Assembly (NCBI GenBank): GCA_963703955.1 | Contig: CAVPGK010000011.1 | Span: 64,001 to 128,000 of the forward strand | Origin: Nitrospirota bacterium | GTDB taxonomy: Bacteria; Nitrospirota; Nitrospiria; Nitrospirales; Nitrospiraceae | Direction: 5' to 3' | Length of the DNA stretch: 64,000 nt | In this document: one piece after another, positions 29,980 through 42,103 of the stretch | Position numbering within the stretch: position 1 is the first letter of the stretch | Layout: the number at the start of each line of letters is the position of its first letter | The notes under the pieces: generated by a model | What the model saw: only the letters and a program-made list of their open reading frames with translations | What the model was told of the DNA's origin: nothing | Databases searched by the model: none | Position numbers and translations under genes: made by a program

Positions 29980-30226
29980 TGGGCCTGAGACCTAGTAACC
30001 ACGGAGCGTAAAAGGTAATGGCCGGATACGTTCGCATCGGGCGAATGATCGATAATTGCCAGCCCTGCTCGCAAGGTCGCCGCTCAGAGTCTCGTTGCAT
30101 GGTTGTTGTGGTTACAAGTAGACTGCTAGTATGTTTGGTCAGTATCGTCTGATCCAAACAGGTCATCACATAGGATTGCTAGGATGGCTCCTGCGGCTTC
30201 CAAGCGGAAACTAAGGAGACGAGGCT

Positions 30227-30850
30227 ATGAACCCAGCAGATGACACCCAAGAAATGAGGGCAGGGACTCAAGGGCCTAAGGGGAGTTCGCCCCGCGAAGA
30301 CAAGAAGAATCCGACCATGCAAGCGGGGCCGGAAAATGCTGAGAGCCTTGACAAGGTAAGAGACATTCTCTTCGGATCTCAGTCTCGGGAATATGACAAA
30401 CGACTCTCCCGCCTTGAAGAAAGTCTCATCCAAAGATCGTCGGAACTGAAGAATGATTTGAAGGCGCGGTTTGAGTCTCTGGAATCCTATCTTGAGAAGG
30501 AGGTCGAATCGTTAACCAATCGAATAAAAGTTGAGCATGATGAACGGGCAGAGTCGGTTAAAGAGCTGATGCGAGAATTGAAGGATCTAAGCAAAATCGT
30601 TGAGAAGAAAGTAACTCAGCTCGATGACCAAGCTAATAAGGAACACCGTGAGTTACGTCAACGAATCTTGGATCAGCACAAGACCTTGTTCGATGAAATC
30701 CAACAGAAGAATGAGACATTAACACAGGCTCTTGGTCAGGCTGTTCAAGAACTCCGTGATGAAAAAGTGAATCGGACACTGCTCGCGGATCTATTAGTAA
30801 AATCTGCTATGTGCCTGAACGATGAACTAAAGATTGCCGGCAACAAATGA
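30227..30850 (+). CDS. Coiled-coil protein of the GTPase module
   Basis: LDKVRDILFGSQSREYDKRL N-terminal motif, long heptads, KVNRTLLADLL. Confidence 0.85.
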   Translation: MNPADDTQEMRAGTQGPKGSSPREDKKNPTMQAGPENAESLDKVRDILFGSQSREYDKRLSRLEESLIQRSSELKNDLKARFESLESYLEKEVESLTNRIKVEHDERAESVKELMRELKDLSKIVEKKVTQLDDQANKEHRELRQRILDQHKTLFDEIQQKNETLTQALGQAVQELRDEKVNRTLLADLLVKSAMCLNDELKIAGNK

Positions 30851-30985
30851 CCGAACAATGGACTTTTTCTTGTTTTCTCTACAATAGTCCCAAACCTTGA
30901 CTGGTTTGATGACCATCGAGAGTTTGTATAGGTCTGATTGACTCTCCTTGCAACACTGCTTAGCTCTAACGTGAGGAGCCGGGCA

Positions 30986-32800
30986 ATGTCTGATTCTTAC
31001 CGTGGGTCAGTTCCCCAAGAGTCCTCCACCACTCCGCAGCATGCCGAAAGAGATCTTGAGAATCTTCGCCGGTTGCTTCTGGCACCCGAGCAGGCCAAAT
31101 TGGGAAAGCTGGAGGAACGTCTGGAGAGATTACATATCGTAGATGCCAAGACAGTAGCCCAGGTATTGCCGGATGCAATTCGCCATCGGTCCAAGCAGGA
31201 TCAACATCTAGCTAGCTCCCTAGCGCCCATTATCGGTGACACCTTCGTTCGGGCCATTAAAGGCTCCCCTCAACTGATAGTCGATGCCATTTACCCCATC
31301 TTGGGGCCGGCGATCAGAAAGGCCATCATTACGGCCATTCAGGGGATGGTGCAGTCGCTCAACGAAACCCTCGAACACAGTTTGTCATGGCAAGGTTTGC
31401 AATGGCGACTTGAGGCCCGGCGCACTGGGAAATCCTTCGGCGAAGTGGTCTTGCTGCACACGCTCCAATTTCGGGTTGAGGAGGTATTTCTGATTCAGAG
31501 GGAAAGCGGCATCCTTCTGCGCCATCTCTACCATCCGAAGGTGCAGGCTCCTGCAGGCCGCGACGAAGATCATATAGCCAGCGTGTTCACCGCGATTAAG
31601 ACCGCCGTGCAGAAGTTTGTGGGCGATTCGTTCCGTGTTTCCAAAGAAGACACGTGGAAGTCCTTTGAGACACACGGAGGTCTGTTAGTGTGGGTCGAAC
31701 CTGGTCCAAAGGCAATTCTAGCTGGAGTCATCCGGGGAATACCCCCTGCACAATTACGGTCTGTATTCCAGGACGTTCTAGATACCATTCATGTCGAGAT
31801 GAATGAAGCCCTCCACAACTTTCGAGGTGATTCAAGTGCATTTGAAGCAGTTGATGACCACCTCACCAGGTGTCTGGAAGAAGGAAGGGCCAAGACTTCA
31901 GTGGGGTCACGCAGTATTTTATCCAAAACTTCTCCGGCTGTGTGGCTGGCCATGGCTGTTTTGTCTGGTCTCCTCGTCTGGGCGATTTTCGCCTATCTAG
32001 ATCATCTGCGTTGGAAGAACTTTTTTGAATTGGCCGGGAATGAGCCTGGCGTCGTTATTACGTCGGTACAGAAAGAGAACGGCAAATCTGTTGTCCGCGG
32101 GTTTCGGGATCCATTGTCCTCTCAGCCTGACAGCTTGGCCCAACAAGTTGGTCTCACACTTGACTCGCTTGTCTTCGAGCTTGAACCGTATCAGGCTCTT
32201 ACACCCGACATCATCAAGAAGCGAGCGATATCGGTTCTTCACCCTCCTGATTCCGTGACGATCTCTGTCCATCAGGAAAACAGTAAAACCACCTTGGTGG
32301 CGACAGGATCTGCTTCTCGTGAGTGGATCACGCGATTTCGGGAAATTGCTCTAGTTATTCCGGGAGTCGGTGAAATCAAAGAAAACGATTTGCACGATAA
32401 TAGCTTGATCGCGTTTGAAGAGATGAAGAGGGAAATTGAAGCGCATCAGTTTACATTCGAACAAGGAAGCTCGGCTCTTTCGTCGGAGACAAAGGAAGAG
32501 ATAGCCATTCTCTCAACGACCATTGGAAAGATCGATAGGTTGGCTCGAGAACTGGACAGACGGGTCCGGATTGAAGTCTATGGGCATACGAGCAAGGAAG
32601 GGTCTTTTGAACTCAACAGGCGTTTAGGTCTTGCGAGAGCTCAAACCCTATTTACTGCTCTTAATACCAAGGATCTCAAGATGACACAGATTCTTCCTTT
32701 AGGAGCGAGGTCAAGTCGCCCCTTGTTACCTGAGAAGAAGGATGAAACCCTATCGACGAATCGACGTGTTTCGCTGCATGTCATCGTGCAGACCCCATGA
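30986..32800 (+). CDS. Membrane protein: cytoplasmic helical + longin/roadblock-like domain, 1 TM, periplasmic OmpA-like C-terminus
   Basis: GAGGAG RBS; TM AVWLAMAVLSGLLVWAIFAYL; F.QGSS.L...EVYGHTS.EG...NRRLGLARA...NRRVSL. Confidence 0.85.
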   Translation: MSDSYRGSVPQESSTTPQHAERDLENLRRLLLAPEQAKLGKLEERLERLHIVDAKTVAQVLPDAIRHRSKQDQHLASSLAPIIGDTFVRAIKGSPQLIVDAIYPILGPAIRKAIITAIQGMVQSLNETLEHSLSWQGLQWRLEARRTGKSFGEVVLLHTLQFRVEEVFLIQRESGILLRHLYHPKVQAPAGRDEDHIASVFTAIKTAVQKFVGDSFRVSKEDTWKSFETHGGLLVWVEPGPKAILAGVIRGIPPAQLRSVFQDVLDTIHVEMNEALHNFRGDSSAFEAVDDHLTRCLEEGRAKTSVGSRSILSKTSPAVWLAMAVLSGLLVWAIFAYLDHLRWKNFFELAGNEPGVVITSVQKENGKSVVRGFRDPLSSQPDSLAQQVGLTLDSLVFELEPYQALTPDIIKKRAISVLHPPDSVTISVHQENSKTTLVATGSASREWITRFREIALVIPGVGEIKENDLHDNSLIAFEEMKREIEAHQFTFEQGSSALSSETKEEIAILSTTIGKIDRLARELDRRVRIEVYGHTSKEGSFELNRRLGLARAQTLFTALNTKDLKMTQILPLGARSSRPLLPEKKDETLSTNRRVSLHVIVQTP

Positions 32801-33459
32801 CTGGCCGATCGATGAACTCCACAGAAACTCAACGCAGTAAGAAGGTATGCATGCTAGGAGCCACGGCTGCTGGCAAGACGTCCCTTGTTAGGCAATATGT
32901 GTATGGAATGTTTGATAAAGAATACAAGACGACTATTGGAGTGAATGTAGAACGGATGGATGTAACTGTGGATGGTCAGGTAGTGAAGCTCACTATGTGG
33001 GACCTTGAGGGGTATGATGATCCTCTCGATGAATATAGAAAGGATTATATACCGGGTGCCCATGGGTATGTGTTAGTGGTAGATGGGACACGCCCAGAGA
33101 CATTGGATGTCGCAAGGAGCCTTCAGCAACTCGCGCAGGACATTCTTGTTGAAGCGGTGCCATTTGTCGTCGTTCTCAATAAGCGCGATTTGGAGGGGAG
33201 ATGGGCGTTGAGCCGAGGGATTTCGAACAAATTGTCTCAAGAAGGATGGACGGCGTACGAGACGAGTGCTAAGACGGGCAAGAATGTCCCCGAGGCCTTT
33301 CAGATTCTAGCCAGAAAAATGCTTGAGATAGATGAGATCAAGGAAAAAGGAGGAGGAGAAACGATGAGAGTCGAAGGGGATAAGAGCATTCAAACAACAA
33401 AGGAACCTGACTTTTCTGATCACGTCAGAGGGATTGGTGATGATATTCTTAGACGGTAG
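32797..33459 (+). CDS. Ras/Rab-like small GTPase
   Basis: G1 GATAAGKTS, G2 YKTTIGV, G3 WDLEG, G4 NKRD, G5 TSAK; ATGA overlap with upstream gene. Confidence 0.93.
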   Translation: MTGRSMNSTETQRSKKVCMLGATAAGKTSLVRQYVYGMFDKEYKTTIGVNVERMDVTVDGQVVKLTMWDLEGYDDPLDEYRKDYIPGAHGYVLVVDGTRPETLDVARSLQQLAQDILVEAVPFVVVLNKRDLEGRWALSRGISNKLSQEGWTAYETSAKTGKNVPEAFQILARKMLEIDEIKEKGGGETMRVEGDKSIQTTKEPDFSDHVRGIGDDILRR

Positions 33460-33641
33460 GCACAACCGTTATCCATGTTCAGAGATCTCCGAGAAGTTAA
33501 TCGTTCAACCGCTGGTCAAGATGAAGTTTGAATTGGGGAATGTCTGTGTTTCTGATCAATCACATGCCCTTAACTGGTCGCTTCAAGGCACGGTGATTCC
33601 TAAGGGTGTGATCTTCTTGGAGTCGACCTGCCGTTCCTGAC

Positions 33642-34460
33642 ATGAATAGCAGCATCTCATATCAGTTGTTCCCAGCCCTAGACACCCTGGTTTTTCGACG
33701 CTCCGAGGAGAACGCAGATTTTCAGCTTATGGGTTCTCCGCCGGATTGGGTTCACTCTCTTAAAGGCCAGCTTTCAGAGCGCTGGGATCCTTCTCAATTC
33801 TTGGAGCAATCTTGTTTTCTGCAGCACTTTTTACGGAGAGCCAAGAGATTTTGGGACGAGAATCAAAGCGGTCAATTGGAATCTGGTCCATGGGAGGAAC
33901 CGACGCTCAAGGGTGAAACATACGATCTAGAAGCGATGGCTCTTGCTATTGGGACGAACAAGGTTCTAGTGATTAGGAAACTAAGCCCGCAGATTCGTTC
34001 CCGTCTTCAAGAAGCCAGGGAAAAGAGTCTCCAGCTACAACGGCAGGGCCTTCTGGAAGAACGATTAAGGGAGAGTGAAAAAGCTCGGGATGATTTACTT
34101 GTTATTTTGGATCAACTGCAGGTGGGCGCATTTTTGACCGATACTAACGGACGGGTAACCTTCATGAATCAATGGGGGCGGCGCGCGTTAGGAAAAACAA
34201 CACTGGAGATCGTTGGTGGACAATGGGATCGAGTGGTTCCCGTCTCGAAAGACGGGCTTGAGGCCCTCATGTCTATGCTTCATCAGCCATCGGCAAGACG
34301 CCAGAGGGTTCCCATTCAATTTAGTCGACAAAATGGATCACGAGTTTTTCTGGAAATCGATGTTCAGGACGACCCTAGGAATTCGCGGCAGAAAATCTTC
34401 TTTCTCTATGATGTGACAGGAGTGCAGTACCTCCGCCGTCCATTGGCAGAACATCTATAG
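33642..34460 (+). CDS. N-terminal sensor-like domain + PAS domain protein without output domain
   Basis: ILDQLQVGAFLTDTNGRVTFMN...LG...EIVG...FLYDVT. Confidence 0.75.
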   Translation: MNSSISYQLFPALDTLVFRRSEENADFQLMGSPPDWVHSLKGQLSERWDPSQFLEQSCFLQHFLRRAKRFWDENQSGQLESGPWEEPTLKGETYDLEAMALAIGTNKVLVIRKLSPQIRSRLQEAREKSLQLQRQGLLEERLRESEKARDDLLVILDQLQVGAFLTDTNGRVTFMNQWGRRALGKTTLEIVGGQWDRVVPVSKDGLEALMSMLHQPSARRQRVPIQFSRQNGSRVFLEIDVQDDPRNSRQKIFFLYDVTGVQYLRRPLAEHL

Positions 34461-34465
34461 TCTTC

Positions 34466-35604
34466 TAGTGTAGTGCGTCATAAATAACTTGACGTATATG
34501 TCCAGACCTCTCTATCTTCTGGAGCATGAGAACCGCGGCCCCTATCCAGCTGTCCCCTATGGAGCGCTCGGCCCTGAGGACATGGGCCCAGGGTCGGCGT
34601 GTCCCCTTTCGCCTGGTGCAGCGAGCGCGGATCGTCCAGTTGGCGGCCGATGGCGTCAGCAATCAGGGAATCGCCCGAACATTGACCATCTCCAGACCCA
34701 CGGTGCAGCTTTGGCGGGAGCGGTTTCTGGCTCTGCGCTTGGCAGGGCTCGAAAAGGATGCGCCACGTCCCGGTCGTCTGCCACGCATCCCCGAACGCAA
34801 AGTGCGGGCCGTCGTCGAGGCGACACTGCACACGACCCCACCGGCTGCGACCCACTGGAGCACCAGGAGTATGGCGAAGGCCCAAGGCCTCAGCGAAGCG
34901 ACGGTGCGGCGGATCTGGAGGCGATACCACCTCAAGCCCCATCTCATCAGGACCTTCAAGCTCAGCCGGGACAAGCAGTTTGTCGAGAAGCTCTACGATG
35001 TCGTGGGGCTCTATCTCAATCCCCCGGACAAGTCCTTGGTCCTGTGCGTCGACGAGAAAAGTCAGGTCCAAGCCCTCGACCGCACCCAGCCGGGCCTTCC
35101 GTTGAAGAAGGGCCGTTGTGGCACGATGACGCACGATTACAAACGCCATGGCACGACCACCTTGTTCGCAGCCCTGAGCATGCTCGACGGCCAGGTGATC
35201 GGCGACTGCATGCCGCGGCATCGACATCAGGAGTTCATTCGCTTCCTCGCAAAGATCGAGGCCGAAACCCCGTCCGAGCTCGCGTTGCATCTGATCGTGG
35301 ACAATTACGGGACGCACAAGCACCCACGGGTGAAAGCTTGGCTCCGGCGGCATCCGCGGGTCCATCTGCACTTTATCCCAACCTCCAGTTCCTGGCTGAA
35401 CCTGGTCGAGCGCTGGTTCCGCGATCTCACCGACAAGCGCATCCGGCGGGGCAGCTTCCAGCATGTGCGGGAATTGATCGCTGCGATCACACAGTACCTG
35501 GACCATCACAATCAGAGCCCCCGGGTATTCGTGTGGACCGCCTCGGTGGGGAATATCTTGACCAAAGTCGCCCAATGTAAAGAAGCGTTAGACGCACTAC
35601 ACTA
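34466..35604 (+). mobile_element. IS630-family insertion sequence, complete
   Basis: 12-bp perfect TIRs GTGTAGTGCGTC (34468-34479)/GACGCACTACAC (35591-35602), TA duplication in CTAG context. Confidence 0.95.
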
Positions 35605-35605
35605 G
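34526..35605 (+). CDS. IS630 transposase
   Basis: HTH, CVDEKSQ, HDYKRHGT, IVDNYGTHK, SWLNLVERWF (DDE). Confidence 0.96.
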   Translation: MRTAAPIQLSPMERSALRTWAQGRRVPFRLVQRARIVQLAADGVSNQGIARTLTISRPTVQLWRERFLALRLAGLEKDAPRPGRLPRIPERKVRAVVEATLHTTPPAATHWSTRSMAKAQGLSEATVRRIWRRYHLKPHLIRTFKLSRDKQFVEKLYDVVGLYLNPPDKSLVLCVDEKSQVQALDRTQPGLPLKKGRCGTMTHDYKRHGTTTLFAALSMLDGQVIGDCMPRHRHQEFIRFLAKIEAETPSELALHLIVDNYGTHKHPRVKAWLRRHPRVHLHFIPTSSSWLNLVERWFRDLTDKRIRRGSFQHVRELIAAITQYLDHHNQSPRVFVWTASVGNILTKVAQCKEALDALH

Positions 35606-35873
35606 ATTCTCCTTAGCAGAGCTTGCTACCTTTGTGTACAAGAAGAGAGCCTCCATAGTCAGGCGACCGTCCTCATTAGGGATCAAGTTGCCAAGTTACA
35701 AAAATAAGGTTTATTACAGCTATTGCTCGGGACAGAACACCATAGAGCGTCCAAACGATAAAAAAACGACCTGTCTTCATCAGTTATAGCCATAAGGATG
35801 AACGCTGGAAAACCCTTTTGGTGACGCATCTCGATGTGCCTCAAAAGCAAGGGCACTTTATTCTAAATGGGTG

Positions 35874-39885: not shown

Positions 39886-39915
39886 CTTGACAAGGTCGAG
39901 CGCAGTTTGTTAGCG
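39886..39915 (+). promoter_or_regulatory. sigma70-like promoter of the sulfur-carrier operon
   Basis: TTGACA at 39886 with downstream TGTTAGCGT (extended -10-like). Confidence 0.45.
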
Positions 39916-39957
39916 TTTAGAATTCTCGTTTCCGAAAGCATACTTAGGGAGACCTCG

Positions 39958-40158
39958 ATGGTCGTGAAAATCAATGGAAAGCCCGAGGAGGTCCACGGGG
40001 CGACCGTCCTTGATCTCCTCAGCGCGAAGAGCATCGATCCGCACATGGTGGCGGTCGAATTGAACTCGAAAATGGTGGAGCGTGACCATCTTGCGACCAC
40101 CGCGGTGAAGGAGGGCGACCAGTTGGAATTTCTCTTCTACATGGGGGGTGGCGGGTGA
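39958..40158 (+). CDS. thiS: ThiS-like sulfur carrier
   Basis: KING...VAVELN...EGDQLEFLFYMGGGG. Confidence 0.88.
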   Translation: MVVKINGKPEEVHGATVLDLLSAKSIDPHMVAVELNSKMVERDHLATTAVKEGDQLEFLFYMGGGG

Positions 40159-41084
40159 CCGCATCGGCCCACAAGGAAATTACGGAGCTCATCGGCGGCA
40201 CACCCCTGGTCCGCTTGAACCGACTATCCAAAGACGGATCGGCGACGATTCATGCGAAGGTCGAATCGTTCAACCCCGGCGGGAGCGTCAAAGATCGGAT
40301 CTGCCTGAACATGATCAATGAGGCGGAGCGCCAGGGTCGCCTCAAACCCGGCGGCACCATCGTGGAACCCACCAGCGGCAACACGGGGATCGGCCTTGCG
40401 TTGGTGGCGGCCGTTCGCGGATACAAATTGATCCTGGTCATGCCCGAAAGCATGAGCATGGAACGCGCGAGTTTGCTCTCCTCCTACGGCGCGCAGTTGG
40501 TGTTAACTGCGGCATGGGAAGGGATGAAAGGCTCGATCAAAGAGGCCGAGAGCATTGTCGCCCAGAACCCATCGTATTTTATGCCCGATCAGTTCTCAAA
40601 CCCAGCCAATCCGGCCATCCACAGACAGACCACGGCAGTGGAGATTTGGGAAGCGCTGAATGGCAAGATCGACGCCTTCGTCGCGGCGGTTGGGACAGGC
40701 GGAACGATTACCGGCTGCGGAGAGGTCTTTAAGGAACGCAATCCCCACGTCAAGGTTATTGCGGTTGAACCCGCCGGCTCGCCGGTTCTCTCCGGCGGAG
40801 ACCCCGGCCCGCACAAGATTCAGGGCATCGGCGCCGGGTTCATTCCAAAGGTTTTGAATCGGTCGATCCTCGACCGAGTGATGACGGTGACCGACGACGA
40901 GGCTTATCAGACTTCGAAGCTGCTGGCCAAGAAGGAAGGACTTCTGGTCGGTATTTCTGCGGGCGCCAATGTGTTTGCCGCCCAGAAGGTGGCGGAGGAA
41001 CTCGGACCCGGGAAGAATGTGGTCACGATCCTCTGTGACACCGGCGAACGGTATATTAGCATCGAGAAGTATTTTAATATCTAG
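40155..41084 (+). CDS. cysK: Cysteine synthase A
   Basis: NPGGSVKDR, EPTSGNTG, GTGGT, HKIQGIGAGF, DTGERY. Confidence 0.95.
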   Translation: MTASAHKEITELIGGTPLVRLNRLSKDGSATIHAKVESFNPGGSVKDRICLNMINEAERQGRLKPGGTIVEPTSGNTGIGLALVAAVRGYKLILVMPESMSMERASLLSSYGAQLVLTAAWEGMKGSIKEAESIVAQNPSYFMPDQFSNPANPAIHRQTTAVEIWEALNGKIDAFVAAVGTGGTITGCGEVFKERNPHVKVIAVEPAGSPVLSGGDPGPHKIQGIGAGFIPKVLNRSILDRVMTVTDDEAYQTSKLLAKKEGLLVGISAGANVFAAQKVAEELGPGKNVVTILCDTGERYISIEKYFNI

Positions 41085-41250
41085 GGCTGCTGAAAATGGC
41101 CCCCAACTTCGTTCTCGGCTCGAAAGAATCCTCAACGTACCCCAGAGGGTACGCCTCCGGTTTTTTCTCGCCTGCGGCCTTGCTCGGGAAGAGGTGCGTC
41201 TCGGCGCGCCTGGGGAGGCGGGTGTGATTGCTGGCCATTTTGACCAGCCT
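41084..41250 (+). repeat. MITE-like element with 18-bp imperfect TIRs
   Basis: GGGCTGCTGAAAATGGCC ... GGCCATTTTGACCAGCCT (15/18 complementary); homologous to 23872 and 53246 copies. Confidence 0.8.
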
Positions 41251-41278
41251 CTTTGCTTGCAAACAGACACCTACTGAA

Positions 41279-42103
41279 ATGGAATTTACGGACGACCAGA
41301 TCACCCGCTACAGCCGGCACATCCTGCTGCCCGAAGTCGGCGGTAAGGGGCAGAAAAAGATTGCCCAGGCGAGAATCTTAATCGTAGGCGCCGGCGGCCT
41401 GGGCTCGCCTGCGGCATTATATTTGGCGGCGGCAGGTGTCGGCACGATCGGCCTTATCGACAGCGACGTGGTGGACCTCTCGAATCTCCAGCGCCAGGTT
41501 ATCCACCACACACCGGATCTGGGGCGTCCCAAAGTGGTGTCTGCTCAGGAGAAGATTGCCGCGATCAATCCCGACGTCAACGTGGTGATGCACCCGGATC
41601 GCCTGGTCGCCGACAATGCCTTGGATATCATCCGTGGATATGACGTCGTCATCGACGGCGTCGATAACTTCCCTGCAAAATTCTTGATCAACGATGCCTG
41701 TTTCTTTGCGGACAAGCCGTTGGTGCACGGAGGGATCCTTCGTTTTGACGGACGAGTCATGACGATTGTTCCAAAACGGTCGGCCTGCTATCGATGTGTC
41801 TTCAAGAACCCGCCGCCTCCCGGTCTGGTTGCGAGTTGCCAGGAAGCCGGGGTGATCGGCGTGCTCGCCGGCATCATCGGAACCATTCAGGCGACGGAAG
41901 CGCTCAAGCTTGTCTTGAAGATCGGTCAGCCGTTGACCGACCGCATGCTCGACTTCGACGCTAGGCGGACAGTCTTTCGGGAGATCAAGACCAGGCGGAA
42001 TGCACGCTGCCCGTTGTGCGGAGACGCTCCGACGATTACGGAACTGTTTGACCACGAGCCTGAGTCGTGCGACCTGAAGCCTGCAGCGGCCGCTCAGGAC
42101 TGA
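41279..42103 (+). CDS. moeB: MoeB/ThiF E1-like adenylyltransferase 1
   Basis: RYSRHILL, GAGGLG, SNLQRQ, CYRC, SCQEAG, CPLC; no rhodanese domain. Confidence 0.9.
   Translation: MEFTDDQITRYSRHILLPEVGGKGQKKIAQARILIVGAGGLGSPAALYLAAAGVGTIGLIDSDVVDLSNLQRQVIHHTPDLGRPKVVSAQEKIAAINPDVNVVMHPDRLVADNALDIIRGYDVVIDGVDNFPAKFLINDACFFADKPLVHGGILRFDGRVMTIVPKRSACYRCVFKNPPPPGLVASCQEAGVIGVLAGIIGTIQATEALKLVLKIGQPLTDRMLDFDARRTVFREIKTRRNARCPLCGDAPTITELFDHEPESCDLKPAAAAQD

What the first reader, a model, noticed from the sequence alone, without database searches (positions are those of the whole stretch)
30227..34460. Four-gene Rab-like GTPase signalling module tethered to the cell envelope
Seen: co-oriented coiled-coil protein, 1-TM protein with OmpA-like C-terminus, stand-alone small GTPase with all five G motifs and a Rab-like switch I (YKTTIGV) coupled by ATGA overlap, and a PAS protein. 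The block is visibly more AT-rich than its flanks and abuts an IS630. Established: stand-alone non-MglA Ras-like GTPases (Rup type) exist in bacteria but are functionally uncharacterised; OmpA-C domains bind peptidoglycan. Inference: a peptidoglycan-anchored receptor controls the GTPase, which signals to the partner protein, giving a eukaryote-like trans-envelope GTPase switch acquired horizontally.
Basis: partly seen in the sequence, partly recalled or inferred. Interest (0 to 1): 0.85.

Follow-up and report, generated by a model that had tools for sequence, protein, structure and literature searches.

The report
Bacterial Rab-like switch with longin partner
This is a copy of a known but untested bacterial four-gene GTPase signalling cluster whose output gene is cut short, and modelling suggests that its membrane protein carries a longin domain, the fold that controls Rab GTPases in eukaryotic cells.

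Summary
The four genes are real, co-oriented and compositionally atypical. Linkage holds in 50 of 66 well-flanked loci from many phyla. What is new here: (1) the family's unnamed cytoplasmic domain models confidently as a longin fold (best Z 13.1, above roadblocks at 8.5), the platform of eukaryotic Rab GEFs/GAPs; a GTPase-longin co-fold gave only weak support (0.45, controls 0.00). (2) The glutamine-bearing domain is PAS-like, with conserved Gln123 and Arg126 on the next helix. (3) Gene 4 is truncated: order-level relatives carry a sigma-54 AAA+/HTH output; this copy and 6 close relatives stop just before it, and the stop precedes the IS630. (4) The block sits in a site empty in relatives and groups with low-GC modules of the same order: transfer within Nitrospirales, not from afar. 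Nothing is shown biochemically.

The parts
30227..30850 (+). Gene 1, DUFY of Group 1 Rup; 207-aa helical (predicted coiled-coil) cytoplasmic protein with conserved N-terminal motif K.RDILFG.Q
   Evidence: ORF; homologue in 75 of 88 GTPase loci; motif conservation; paper section 18
30986..32800 (+). Gene 2, DUFX-TM-OmpA of Group 1 Rup; 604 aa: helical stalk, longin-fold domain, one TM helix, periplasmic BON-like repeat, OmpA_C-like domain
   Evidence: homologue in 79 of 88 loci
31469..31885 (+). Longin-fold domain of gene 2 (residues about 162-300), strand-strand-helix-strand-strand-strand-helix-helix
   Evidence: AlphaFold2 model, block pLDDT mostly 78-98 with one loop near 61; Sec22b longin Z 13.1, rmsd 2.3, 120 aligned; all 8 Foldseek hits at E<=0.001 are longin-fold chains
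31937..31993 (+). Single predicted transmembrane helix (residues 318-336)
   Evidence: Kyte-Doolittle peak 2.26, the only one above 1.6 in the four proteins
32207..32395 (+). BON-like periplasmic repeat (residues about 408-470)
   Evidence: aligns with the repeat of homologue P0174 that scores Pfam BON E 1e-8; no BON hit on this protein itself
32453..32761 (+). OmpA_C-like domain (residues 490-592), motif GHTS..G...N..L..RA with Ser for the usual Asp
   Evidence: PF00691 E 1.1e-7; motif tally D36 N8 S4, 29 unmatched, of 77; alignment
32797..33459 (+). Gene 3, Group 1 Rup small GTPase, Rab-like, no G3 glutamine, no C-terminal cysteine; switch I and II diverged from the family
33642..34460 (+). 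Gene 4, truncated output gene: PAS-like domain (1-115), helix with Gln123/Arg126, PAS domain (161-259); sigma-54 AAA+ and HTH absent
34469..35601 (+). IS630 element between CTAG copies, inserted 4 bases behind gene 4's stop; neighbour, not part of the system
   Evidence: (copies on C4 99.5%, C22 97.9%)

Best explanation
A Group 1 Rup GTPase module whose output gene is truncated. SHOWN (computationally): family identity, linkage, folds, truncation, insertion site. INFERRED working model: gene 2 sits in the inner membrane, held at the cell wall by its BON-like and OmpA-like periplasmic part. Two copies pair through their helical stalks, probably with gene 1 as coiled-coil partner, so that two longin domains form a platform under the membrane. 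The platform binds the unprenylated GTPase and controls its nucleotide state, most likely as exchange factor (my odds: GEF 50, GAP 25, plain docking 25). The GTP form then binds the PAS-like domain and following helix of gene 4, whose Gln123 and Arg126 supply in trans what the GTPase's G3 lacks, so gene 4 is effector and off-switch at once. In most Nitrospirales that protein is a sigma-54 activator; in other phyla a kinase, HD-GYP or GGDEF-EAL protein. In this lineage the AAA+/HTH half is gone, so the protein can at most reset or buffer the switch, and any output must be in trans. The block came into the DUF3386-TPM spacer from a lower-GC lineage of the same order.
For: Paper definition matches gene for gene and lists Nitrospira defluvii NIDE0273. 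50 of 66 well-flanked loci have all four genes, 60 of 66 have genes 1-3. Longin fold: Z 13.1 Sec22b, 12.3 CPLANE chain C, 10.6 Mon1-Ccz1, 10-11 TRAPP, 10.4 Lokiarchaeote longin, each aligned through the last helix; roadblock-only chains 7.6-9.0 (bacterial ones 8.1-8.5) and shorter. Family GTPase profile is closest to Rab23, an Asgard Rab and Rab7 among solved structures. Co-fold GTPase + longin: weak support, 0.45 against best control 0.00 (counts in full report). One family member has two longin repeats in one chain (P0141). Gln123 64 of 66, Arg126 61 of 66. Outputs among 63 gene-4 homologues: kinase 28, sigma-54 19, HD-GYP 5, GGDEF-EAL 2, none 9. Same stop in 7 of 7 cluster members at 92-96% identity. 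Empty site in 5 of 8 relatives where both flanks were fetched. Tree 100/100 with low-GC modules.
Against: No biochemical or genetic data exist in the searched literature for any member. The longin call rests on one predicted model; by sequence it is not significant (Fuz_longin_1 in 6 of 76 members, best E 0.0089; no longin among 14 PDB sequence hits). The co-fold pass is weak, one of three runs scored 0.00, and may come from likeness to solved longin-Rab complexes. The Y-K/R switch-I motif needed by Mon1-Ccz1-type GEFs is in only 5 of 88 family GTPases, and the closest relatives read YE. Ser for Asp in the OmpA motif weakens the peptidoglycan-binding claim for this copy. Sister modules have lost gene 4 altogether, and 10 of 66 loci have genes 1-3 without gene 4 nearby, so gene 4 cannot be an obligatory GAP. 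The genome is 82% complete.
Confidence: 0.6

Rival explanations
1. Decaying remnant: after transfer the module lost its output half and is drifting; the short gene 4 is a pseudogene not yet erased.
For: Gene 4 ends exactly before the AAA+ domain; sister modules lack it genome-wide (G036 99% complete, G395); the GTPase departs from 18 of 74 conserved columns, median 5, second most of 88; OmpA Asp replaced; IS630 inserted right behind.
Against: All four frames are open; 7 of 7 cluster members keep the same open short frame at 92-96% identity (though the cluster is selected for likeness); the N-terminal domain departs at only 1 of 23 conserved columns; sister modules kept genes 1-3 intact over long branches; output-less gene 4 occurs in 9 of 63 loci.
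Confidence: 0.25
2. The longin platform is the GAP (as MglB for MglA, or FLCN/NPRL2/SMCR8 complexes), and gene 4's conserved Gln/Arg only relay the signal along the PAS-helix axis.
For: Longin and roadblock platforms include GAPs; the longin has conserved polar residues (Arg250 68 of 76, Asp214 73 of 76, Glu238 71 of 76); genes 1-3 persist without gene 4.
Against: GEF activity is the more typical longin role (passage); I did not show that any conserved Arg lies where an arginine finger would; the 2014 paper favours gene 4's Gln.
Confidence: 0.25
3. Rewired three-gene core: in this subclade the GTPase's changed switch regions serve a new effector encoded elsewhere (for instance a positional or polarity role at a wall-anchored site), independent of gene 4.
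For: Switch I/II changes and a one-residue switch-II insertion are shared by the window, L011 and L020, the clade in which gene 4 is cut or absent.
Against: No candidate effector found; no second Gln-PAS domain in this genome; the intact REC-sigma-54 paralogue on C8 is only a speculative trans partner.
Confidence: 0.2
4. One reading: a novel eukaryote-like module acquired from a distant source.
For: Atypical GC and codon use; patchy presence (9 of 61 genomes).
Against: Described in 2014; nests inside a Nitrospirales clade (20 rows, 99% SH-aLRT); gene 4 homologues in 93 of 370 family genomes.
Confidence: 0.03

Closest known systems
Group 1 Rup system (Wuichet & Sogaard-Andersen 2014, PMC4316618)
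   Same: Same gene order DUFY > DUFX:OmpA > Rup, G3 without Gln, fourth gene with an invariant N-terminal Gln; Nitrospira defluvii is in its table.
   Different: Fourth gene here has no output domain; in Nitrospirales it is a sigma-54 activator, a type the read sections do not name; the paper left DUFX and the Gln domain without a fold; this GTPase has diverged switch regions.
Eukaryotic longin platforms for Rab GTPases (Mon1-Ccz1/Rab7, Fuzzy-Inturned/Rab23, TRAPP/Rab1)
   Same: Longin fold next to a GTPase whose family profile is closest to Rab23 and Rab7 among solved structures; switch-I Tyr invariant (88 of 88) and the Phe four residues before it aromatic in all 88.
   Different: One longin per chain, fused to a TM helix and periplasmic domains; presumably a homodimer; Y-K/R motif not conserved; GTPase has no prenylation cysteine; no significant sequence likeness.
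MglA-MglB (Myxococcus, Thermus) and the actinobacterial conservon
   Same: Operon-linked small GTPase with a roadblock/longin-superfamily partner and, in the conservon, a membrane-linked signalling gene.
   Different: GTPase is Rup/Rab-like, not MglA; partner has longin rather than roadblock topology (MglB Z 8.1, aligned only to residue 264 of the model) and is membrane-anchored.
Asgard archaeal longin and roadblock-longin proteins
   Same: Fold match to a Lokiarchaeote longin dimer (8yqg, Z 10.4); nearest Pfam-named Atlas cluster is Promethearchaeota, score 0.76, a lead only.
   Different: Asgard GTPase genes generally do not lie in operons with longins (passage); here linkage is tight.

Membership tests
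Group 1 Rup | Single-domain Ras-superfamily GTPase with eukaryote-like G1-G5 | tested here: met
Group 1 Rup | No catalytic Gln after G3 DxxG | tested here: met
   DLEGYDD; residue after DxxG over 92 aligned sequences: E68 Q7 D6 A4 R4 L2 Y1
Group 1 Rup | Neighbouring coiled-coil gene (DUFY) and DUFX-TM-OmpA gene | tested here: met
   same order as the paper's table
Group 1 Rup | Fourth gene with N-terminal invariant Gln | tested here: met
   Gln123, 64 of 66, the other two are gaps; that this is the paper's Gln is inferred, its logo figure was not visible
Group 1 Rup | Fourth gene carries a signal output module (typical, not used in the paper's neighbourhood table) | tested here: not met
   ends before the AAA+ domain; missing half not found in the 82%-complete genome
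Group 1 Rup | Placement in the paper's Group 1 clade | tested here: inconclusive
   the paper's own sequences were not fetched; the module groups with Nitrospira loci and is alignable with Nostoc and Mesorhizobium loci, genera in its table
Longin domain | Topology of two strands, helix, three strands, two helices, with the extra C-terminal helix that roadblocks lack | tested here: met
   model elements E148-157, E163-168, H180-200, E212-214, E219-225, E229-237, H241-263, H270-280; longins align to 286, roadblocks to about 260; definition
Longin domain | Sequence-level homology to named longin families | tested here: inconclusive
   Fuz_longin_1 6 of 76 (best E 0.0089), Intu_longin_1 2 of 76, Robl_LC7 2 of 76; none in PDB sequence search
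Longin domain | Dimer platform that binds a small GTPase | tested here: inconclusive
   monomer co-fold weak pass 0.45 vs 0.00; dimer not modelled
Tri-longin RabGEF (Mon1-Ccz1 type) | Three longins per subunit and a Y-K/R substrate motif | tested here: not met
   one longin per chain; Y-K/R in 5 of 88
MglA family | MglB (Robl_LC7) gene within four genes | tested here: not met
   no Robl_LC7 hit at cut-off for the four genes or their direct neighbours; no MglA among the best 60 PDB hits
Roco protein | Roc fused to LRR and COR | tested here: not met
   220-aa stand-alone ORF; neighbours carry no COR or LRR
Eukaryotic Rab | C-terminal prenylation cysteines (recalled) | tested here: not met
   protein ends without cysteine

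The most novel reading that the evidence does not exclude
Group 1 Rup systems are a bacterial, operon-encoded longin-Rab-like switch: a wall-anchored longin dimer loads the GTPase, and a PAS-linked helix supplies Gln and Arg fingers in trans. They would be a working prokaryotic counterpart, perhaps a relative, of the longin GEF/Rab pairs of eukaryotes, in a domain family of over 4000 sequence clusters that has no Pfam model; the short gene 4 here would be the naturally isolated GAP module.
Probability: 0.4. Interest if true: 0.8.

Novelty: new variant of a known kind. Interest (0 to 1): 0.52.

Why it matters
The 2014 paper found Group 1 Rup to be very similar to Rab/Ran/Ras/Rho and could name no regulator. 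A longin domain in the adjacent membrane protein gives a concrete candidate and a simple assay, and bears on where the longin-Rab partnership of eukaryotic membrane traffic came from: a 2013 review passage states there are no longin domains in prokaryotes, and later passages place them in Asgard archaea. The truncated gene 4 and the sister modules without it are natural dissections of the system. The cluster itself is known, so the locus alone is ordinary.

Tried and rejected
Single-protein scan of genome contigs and close-relative scan of metagenome contigs found nothing, so DNA around the 85-89% relatives was never seen: no dN/dS, no view of their IS status. Split-gene idea: the best match to the missing AAA+ half (C8:2751-4322, 57-63%) is an intact receiver-AAA+-HTH gene, not the lost half; the DNA behind the IS does not encode it. 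IS-caused truncation rejected as direct cause: the stop lies before the CTAG target and is shared by 7 of 7 cluster members; an older IS-linked deletion is not excluded. Search for longer gene-4 relatives gave 2 distant hits, a weak negative. No fusion of the longin with the GTPase or the Gln domain among the best 150 representatives. Promoter/terminator scan at chance level; no Rfam match. ESM Atlas: no hit at 0.9. Read-laying: 4 runs of short contigs; a soil RNA run had pieces on genes 1-3 and none on gene 4, but it is a small-share run, contigs only, and DNA may be in it, so it is not used as evidence; no joint skipping the IS was listed. Gene 1 versus gene 2 N-terminal likeness is weak. 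The GTPase-gene 4 complex, the longin dimer and the periplasmic fold could not be modelled with the jobs available.
Full report
Observation. Gene 2 has one hydrophobic segment at residues 318-336 and a C-terminal OmpA domain (E 1.1e-7); gene 3 is a Ras-family GTPase (E 8.6e-28); gene 4 has a PAS domain (E 7.3e-7); an IS630 follows. The ATGA overlap is in the sequence and is common in the family (an in-frame ATGA/GTGA overlap in 25 of 67 loci where gene 2 directly precedes gene 3). The block has GC 0.492, in the lowest 0.1% of 3210 genome windows, and the genes' GC3 and codon scores lie in the lowest 0.7-3.5% of 1899 long ORFs. The host is inferred to be a Nitrospiraceae-like bacterium from the named genomes with which its family relatives group; the assembly is 82% complete.

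The module is known. Wuichet & Sogaard-Andersen (PMC4316618; I read the abstract, sections 12, 16, 17, 18, 19 and the Rup Group 1 rows of supplement file 3; figures and supplement file 1 were not visible) define Group 1 Rup as a GTPase without the G3 glutamine, encoded with a coiled-coil protein, a protein with an unnamed domain followed by a TM helix and OmpA, and an output protein (typically GGDEF/EAL or kinase) with an invariant N-terminal Gln proposed to act in trans. Its table has 27 members, among them Nitrospira defluvii NIDE0273. I tested the linkage on 88 loci picked by the GTPase (80 from GTDB, the best of at least 590, and 8 from relatives; a ninth, distant locus L019 was left out): gene 2 in 79, gene 1 in 75, gene 4 in 65, all four in 57; among the 66 loci with at least 3 kb upstream and 1.5 kb downstream, 50 have all four, 10 have genes 1-3 only. 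The loci span Nitrospirota, Cyanobacteriota, Acidobacteriota, Pseudomonadota, Bacteroidota and others.

The unnamed domain is a longin fold. An AlphaFold2 model of gene 2 residues 15-300 from a 76-row alignment (mean pLDDT 80.7, pTM 0.54) has a helical stalk followed by two strands, a helix, three strands and two helices. Foldseek's 8 hits at E<=0.001 are all longin-fold chains (COPI, AP sigma, TRAPP, Sec22b). The independent wide search ranks Sec22b (Z 13.1, rmsd 2.3, 120 aligned), a CPLANE chain (12.3), VAMP7 (11.9), TRAPP subunits (10-11), Mon1-Ccz1 (10.6) and a Lokiarchaeote longin (10.4) on top, aligned through the last helix; roadblock-only chains score 7.6-9.0 (MglB 8.1, a Streptomyces roadblock 8.5) and stop near residue 260. 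The extra C-terminal helix is what separates longin from roadblock (passages). Against this: sequence evidence is below significance (Fuz_longin_1 in 6 of 76 members, best E 0.0089; nothing longin-like among 14 PDB sequence hits), and a shared fold shows no function. The domain is common: 5909, 4310 and 1511 clusters at E 1e-3, 1e-10 and 1e-30; one member has two copies in a 329-aa chain, another three. The family GTPase profile is closest to Rab23, an Asgard Rab and Rab7 among solved structures, with no MglA in the best 60. One co-fold of the GTPase with gene 2 residues 134-300, GTP and Mg gave 'weak support': score 0.45 (runs 0.47, 0.45, 0.00), best of 3 controls 0.00; the mark was reached by 116 of 157 solved complexes and 2 of 215 mismatched pairs, but at 0.60 or under by only 18 of the 157 and by both mismatches; runs agree in at least 0% of contacts, partner pLDDT at least 70; likeness to solved longin-Rab complexes may explain the pass, and a monomer was used where known platforms are dimers. 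The Y-K/R substrate motif of Mon1-Ccz1-type GEFs (passages) reads YK here but occurs in only 5 of 88 family members, and the closest relatives have YE, so that mechanism is not a family trait.

Periplasmic part. Residues about 408-470 align with the repeat that scores as BON in a longer homologue. The OmpA-like motif has Ser where Asp is commonest (D36, N8, S4, 29 unmatched of 77); that the Asp helps bind peptidoglycan is recalled, not tested. Wall anchoring of this copy is therefore plausible but weaker than assumed.

Gene 4. Its first 115 residues model as a PAS-like fold (pLDDT 90.2; all top hits PAS/LOV but Z only up to 8.8) followed by a long helix that carries Gln123 (64 of 66), Arg126 (61 of 66) and Leu130 (63 of 66). 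A Gln and an Arg on one helix face recall the two fingers of TBC RabGAPs (passage); this is my inference and was not modelled. Among 63 complete homologues the output is a histidine kinase in 28, a sigma-54 AAA+/HTH in 19 (all Nitrospirales or relatives of this genome), HD-GYP in 5, GGDEF-EAL in 2 and absent in 9. In the family, 93 of 370 genomes match gene 4, and 90 of 98 matches lie in open frames of 581 codons or more. Here the protein stops exactly where the AAA+ domain begins. The stop (34458-34460) lies 4 bases before the CTAG target of the IS, and all 7 members of its 90% cluster, 92-96% identical, end at the same residue, so the cut is neither an assembly slip nor the direct work of this IS copy. 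The missing half was not found in the assembly; the best match is an intact receiver-AAA+ paralogue on C8. The two sister modules (G036, 99% complete, and G395) have genes 1-3 and no Gln domain anywhere. These three GTPases are the most diverged of 88 (18, 17 and 21 departures from 74 conserved columns; median 5), mainly in switch I and II.

Origin. The flanking DUF3386 and TPM genes were both in view in 8 of 11 fetched relatives; 5 have them about 0.5-0.65 kb apart and 3 have 2.3-3 kb between them, with none of the four genes. Three of these genomes (G011, G018, G024) carry the module elsewhere. The module nests in a Nitrospirales clade (20 of 76 rows, SH-aLRT 99, quick tree). A three-gene tree of 24 rows places it at 100/100 with L011, L020, L016 (another family of the order), L089, L023 and L031, apart from own-family modules L012-L015; four of these sisters have module GC 0.45-0.47, and in 18 other Nitrospirales loci with usable flanks module GC is within 0.04 of flank GC. 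They also share the Ser motif. Transfer within the order from a lower-GC lineage is the simplest reading; long-branch attraction was not tested and no donor is named. The IS630 has two further copies at 98-99.5% and host-like codon use.

Novelty check. 'Rup GTPase' and six member locus tags occur only in the 2014 paper; 'bacterial longin' and combined longin/OmpA/neighbourhood searches gave nothing on this family. The library lacks most subscription papers. Tempering passages: a review table lumps longin/roadblock as present in bacteria (PMC4917890); a 2026 preprint finds 48% of longin/roadblock signature proteins in clusters spanning all four lineages it compares (PMC13734099); another notes profilin-longin-like domains with GTPases across life, partly unpublished (10.64898/2026.10.19.760177). 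Of PMC3747258, PMC10933270, PMC3521125, PMC4915359, PMC12290439, PMC12383261 and PMC5216073 I saw search passages only.

Verdict. A real, known kind of system in a new, output-less variant. The locus is ordinary as a Group 1 Rup member; the longin fold of its membrane protein and the Gln/Arg helix of gene 4 are the additions worth testing.

Noticed in passing
G000:C8:2751-4322 (L100, - strand): Intact receiver-sigma-54 AAA+-HTH gene whose AAA+ half is 57-63% identical to that of gene-4 relatives, far above other paralogues (about 44%); same subfamily, possible trans partner.
   Followed up: partly
G000:C8:4540-12000 and C20:89216-96786: About 7.5 kb present twice at 97% identity; duplication or strain mixture in the assembly.
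   Followed up: no
L063:2201-3234, L069:6300-7528: Two Rup GTPases in tandem in Gemmatimonadota loci that lack gene 4 nearby.
   Followed up: no
P0141 and P0134: Family members with two longin repeats in 329 aa, and three in a 2171-aa CARDB/DUF5915 protein; origin unnamed. Atlas neighbours of the domain include archaeal clusters (score 0.83, lead only).
   Followed up: partly
L034, L038, L076, L084, L086, L090, L093: Stand-alone 145-200 aa Gln-PAS proteins without output domain; in L076 and L084 the gene lies upstream of gene 1.
   Followed up: partly
window 30350-30385 and 31060-31095: Genes 1 and 2 begin with similar helical motifs (DKVRDILFG, ENLRRLLLA); weak profile cross-hits suggest a shared dimerisation helix.
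   Followed up: partly
window 29980-35870: The DUF3386-TPM spacer holds 2.3-3 kb of other DNA in 3 of 8 relatives, perhaps an insertion hot spot.
   Followed up: partly
P0154, P0174, P0202: Gene-2 homologues of about 915 aa with six or more BON-like repeats between membrane and OmpA domain: periplasmic length varies widely.
   Followed up: partly
window 39907-42103: ThiS-like, CysK-like and MoeB-like genes in a row, conserved in relatives (names recalled from the translations).
   Followed up: no
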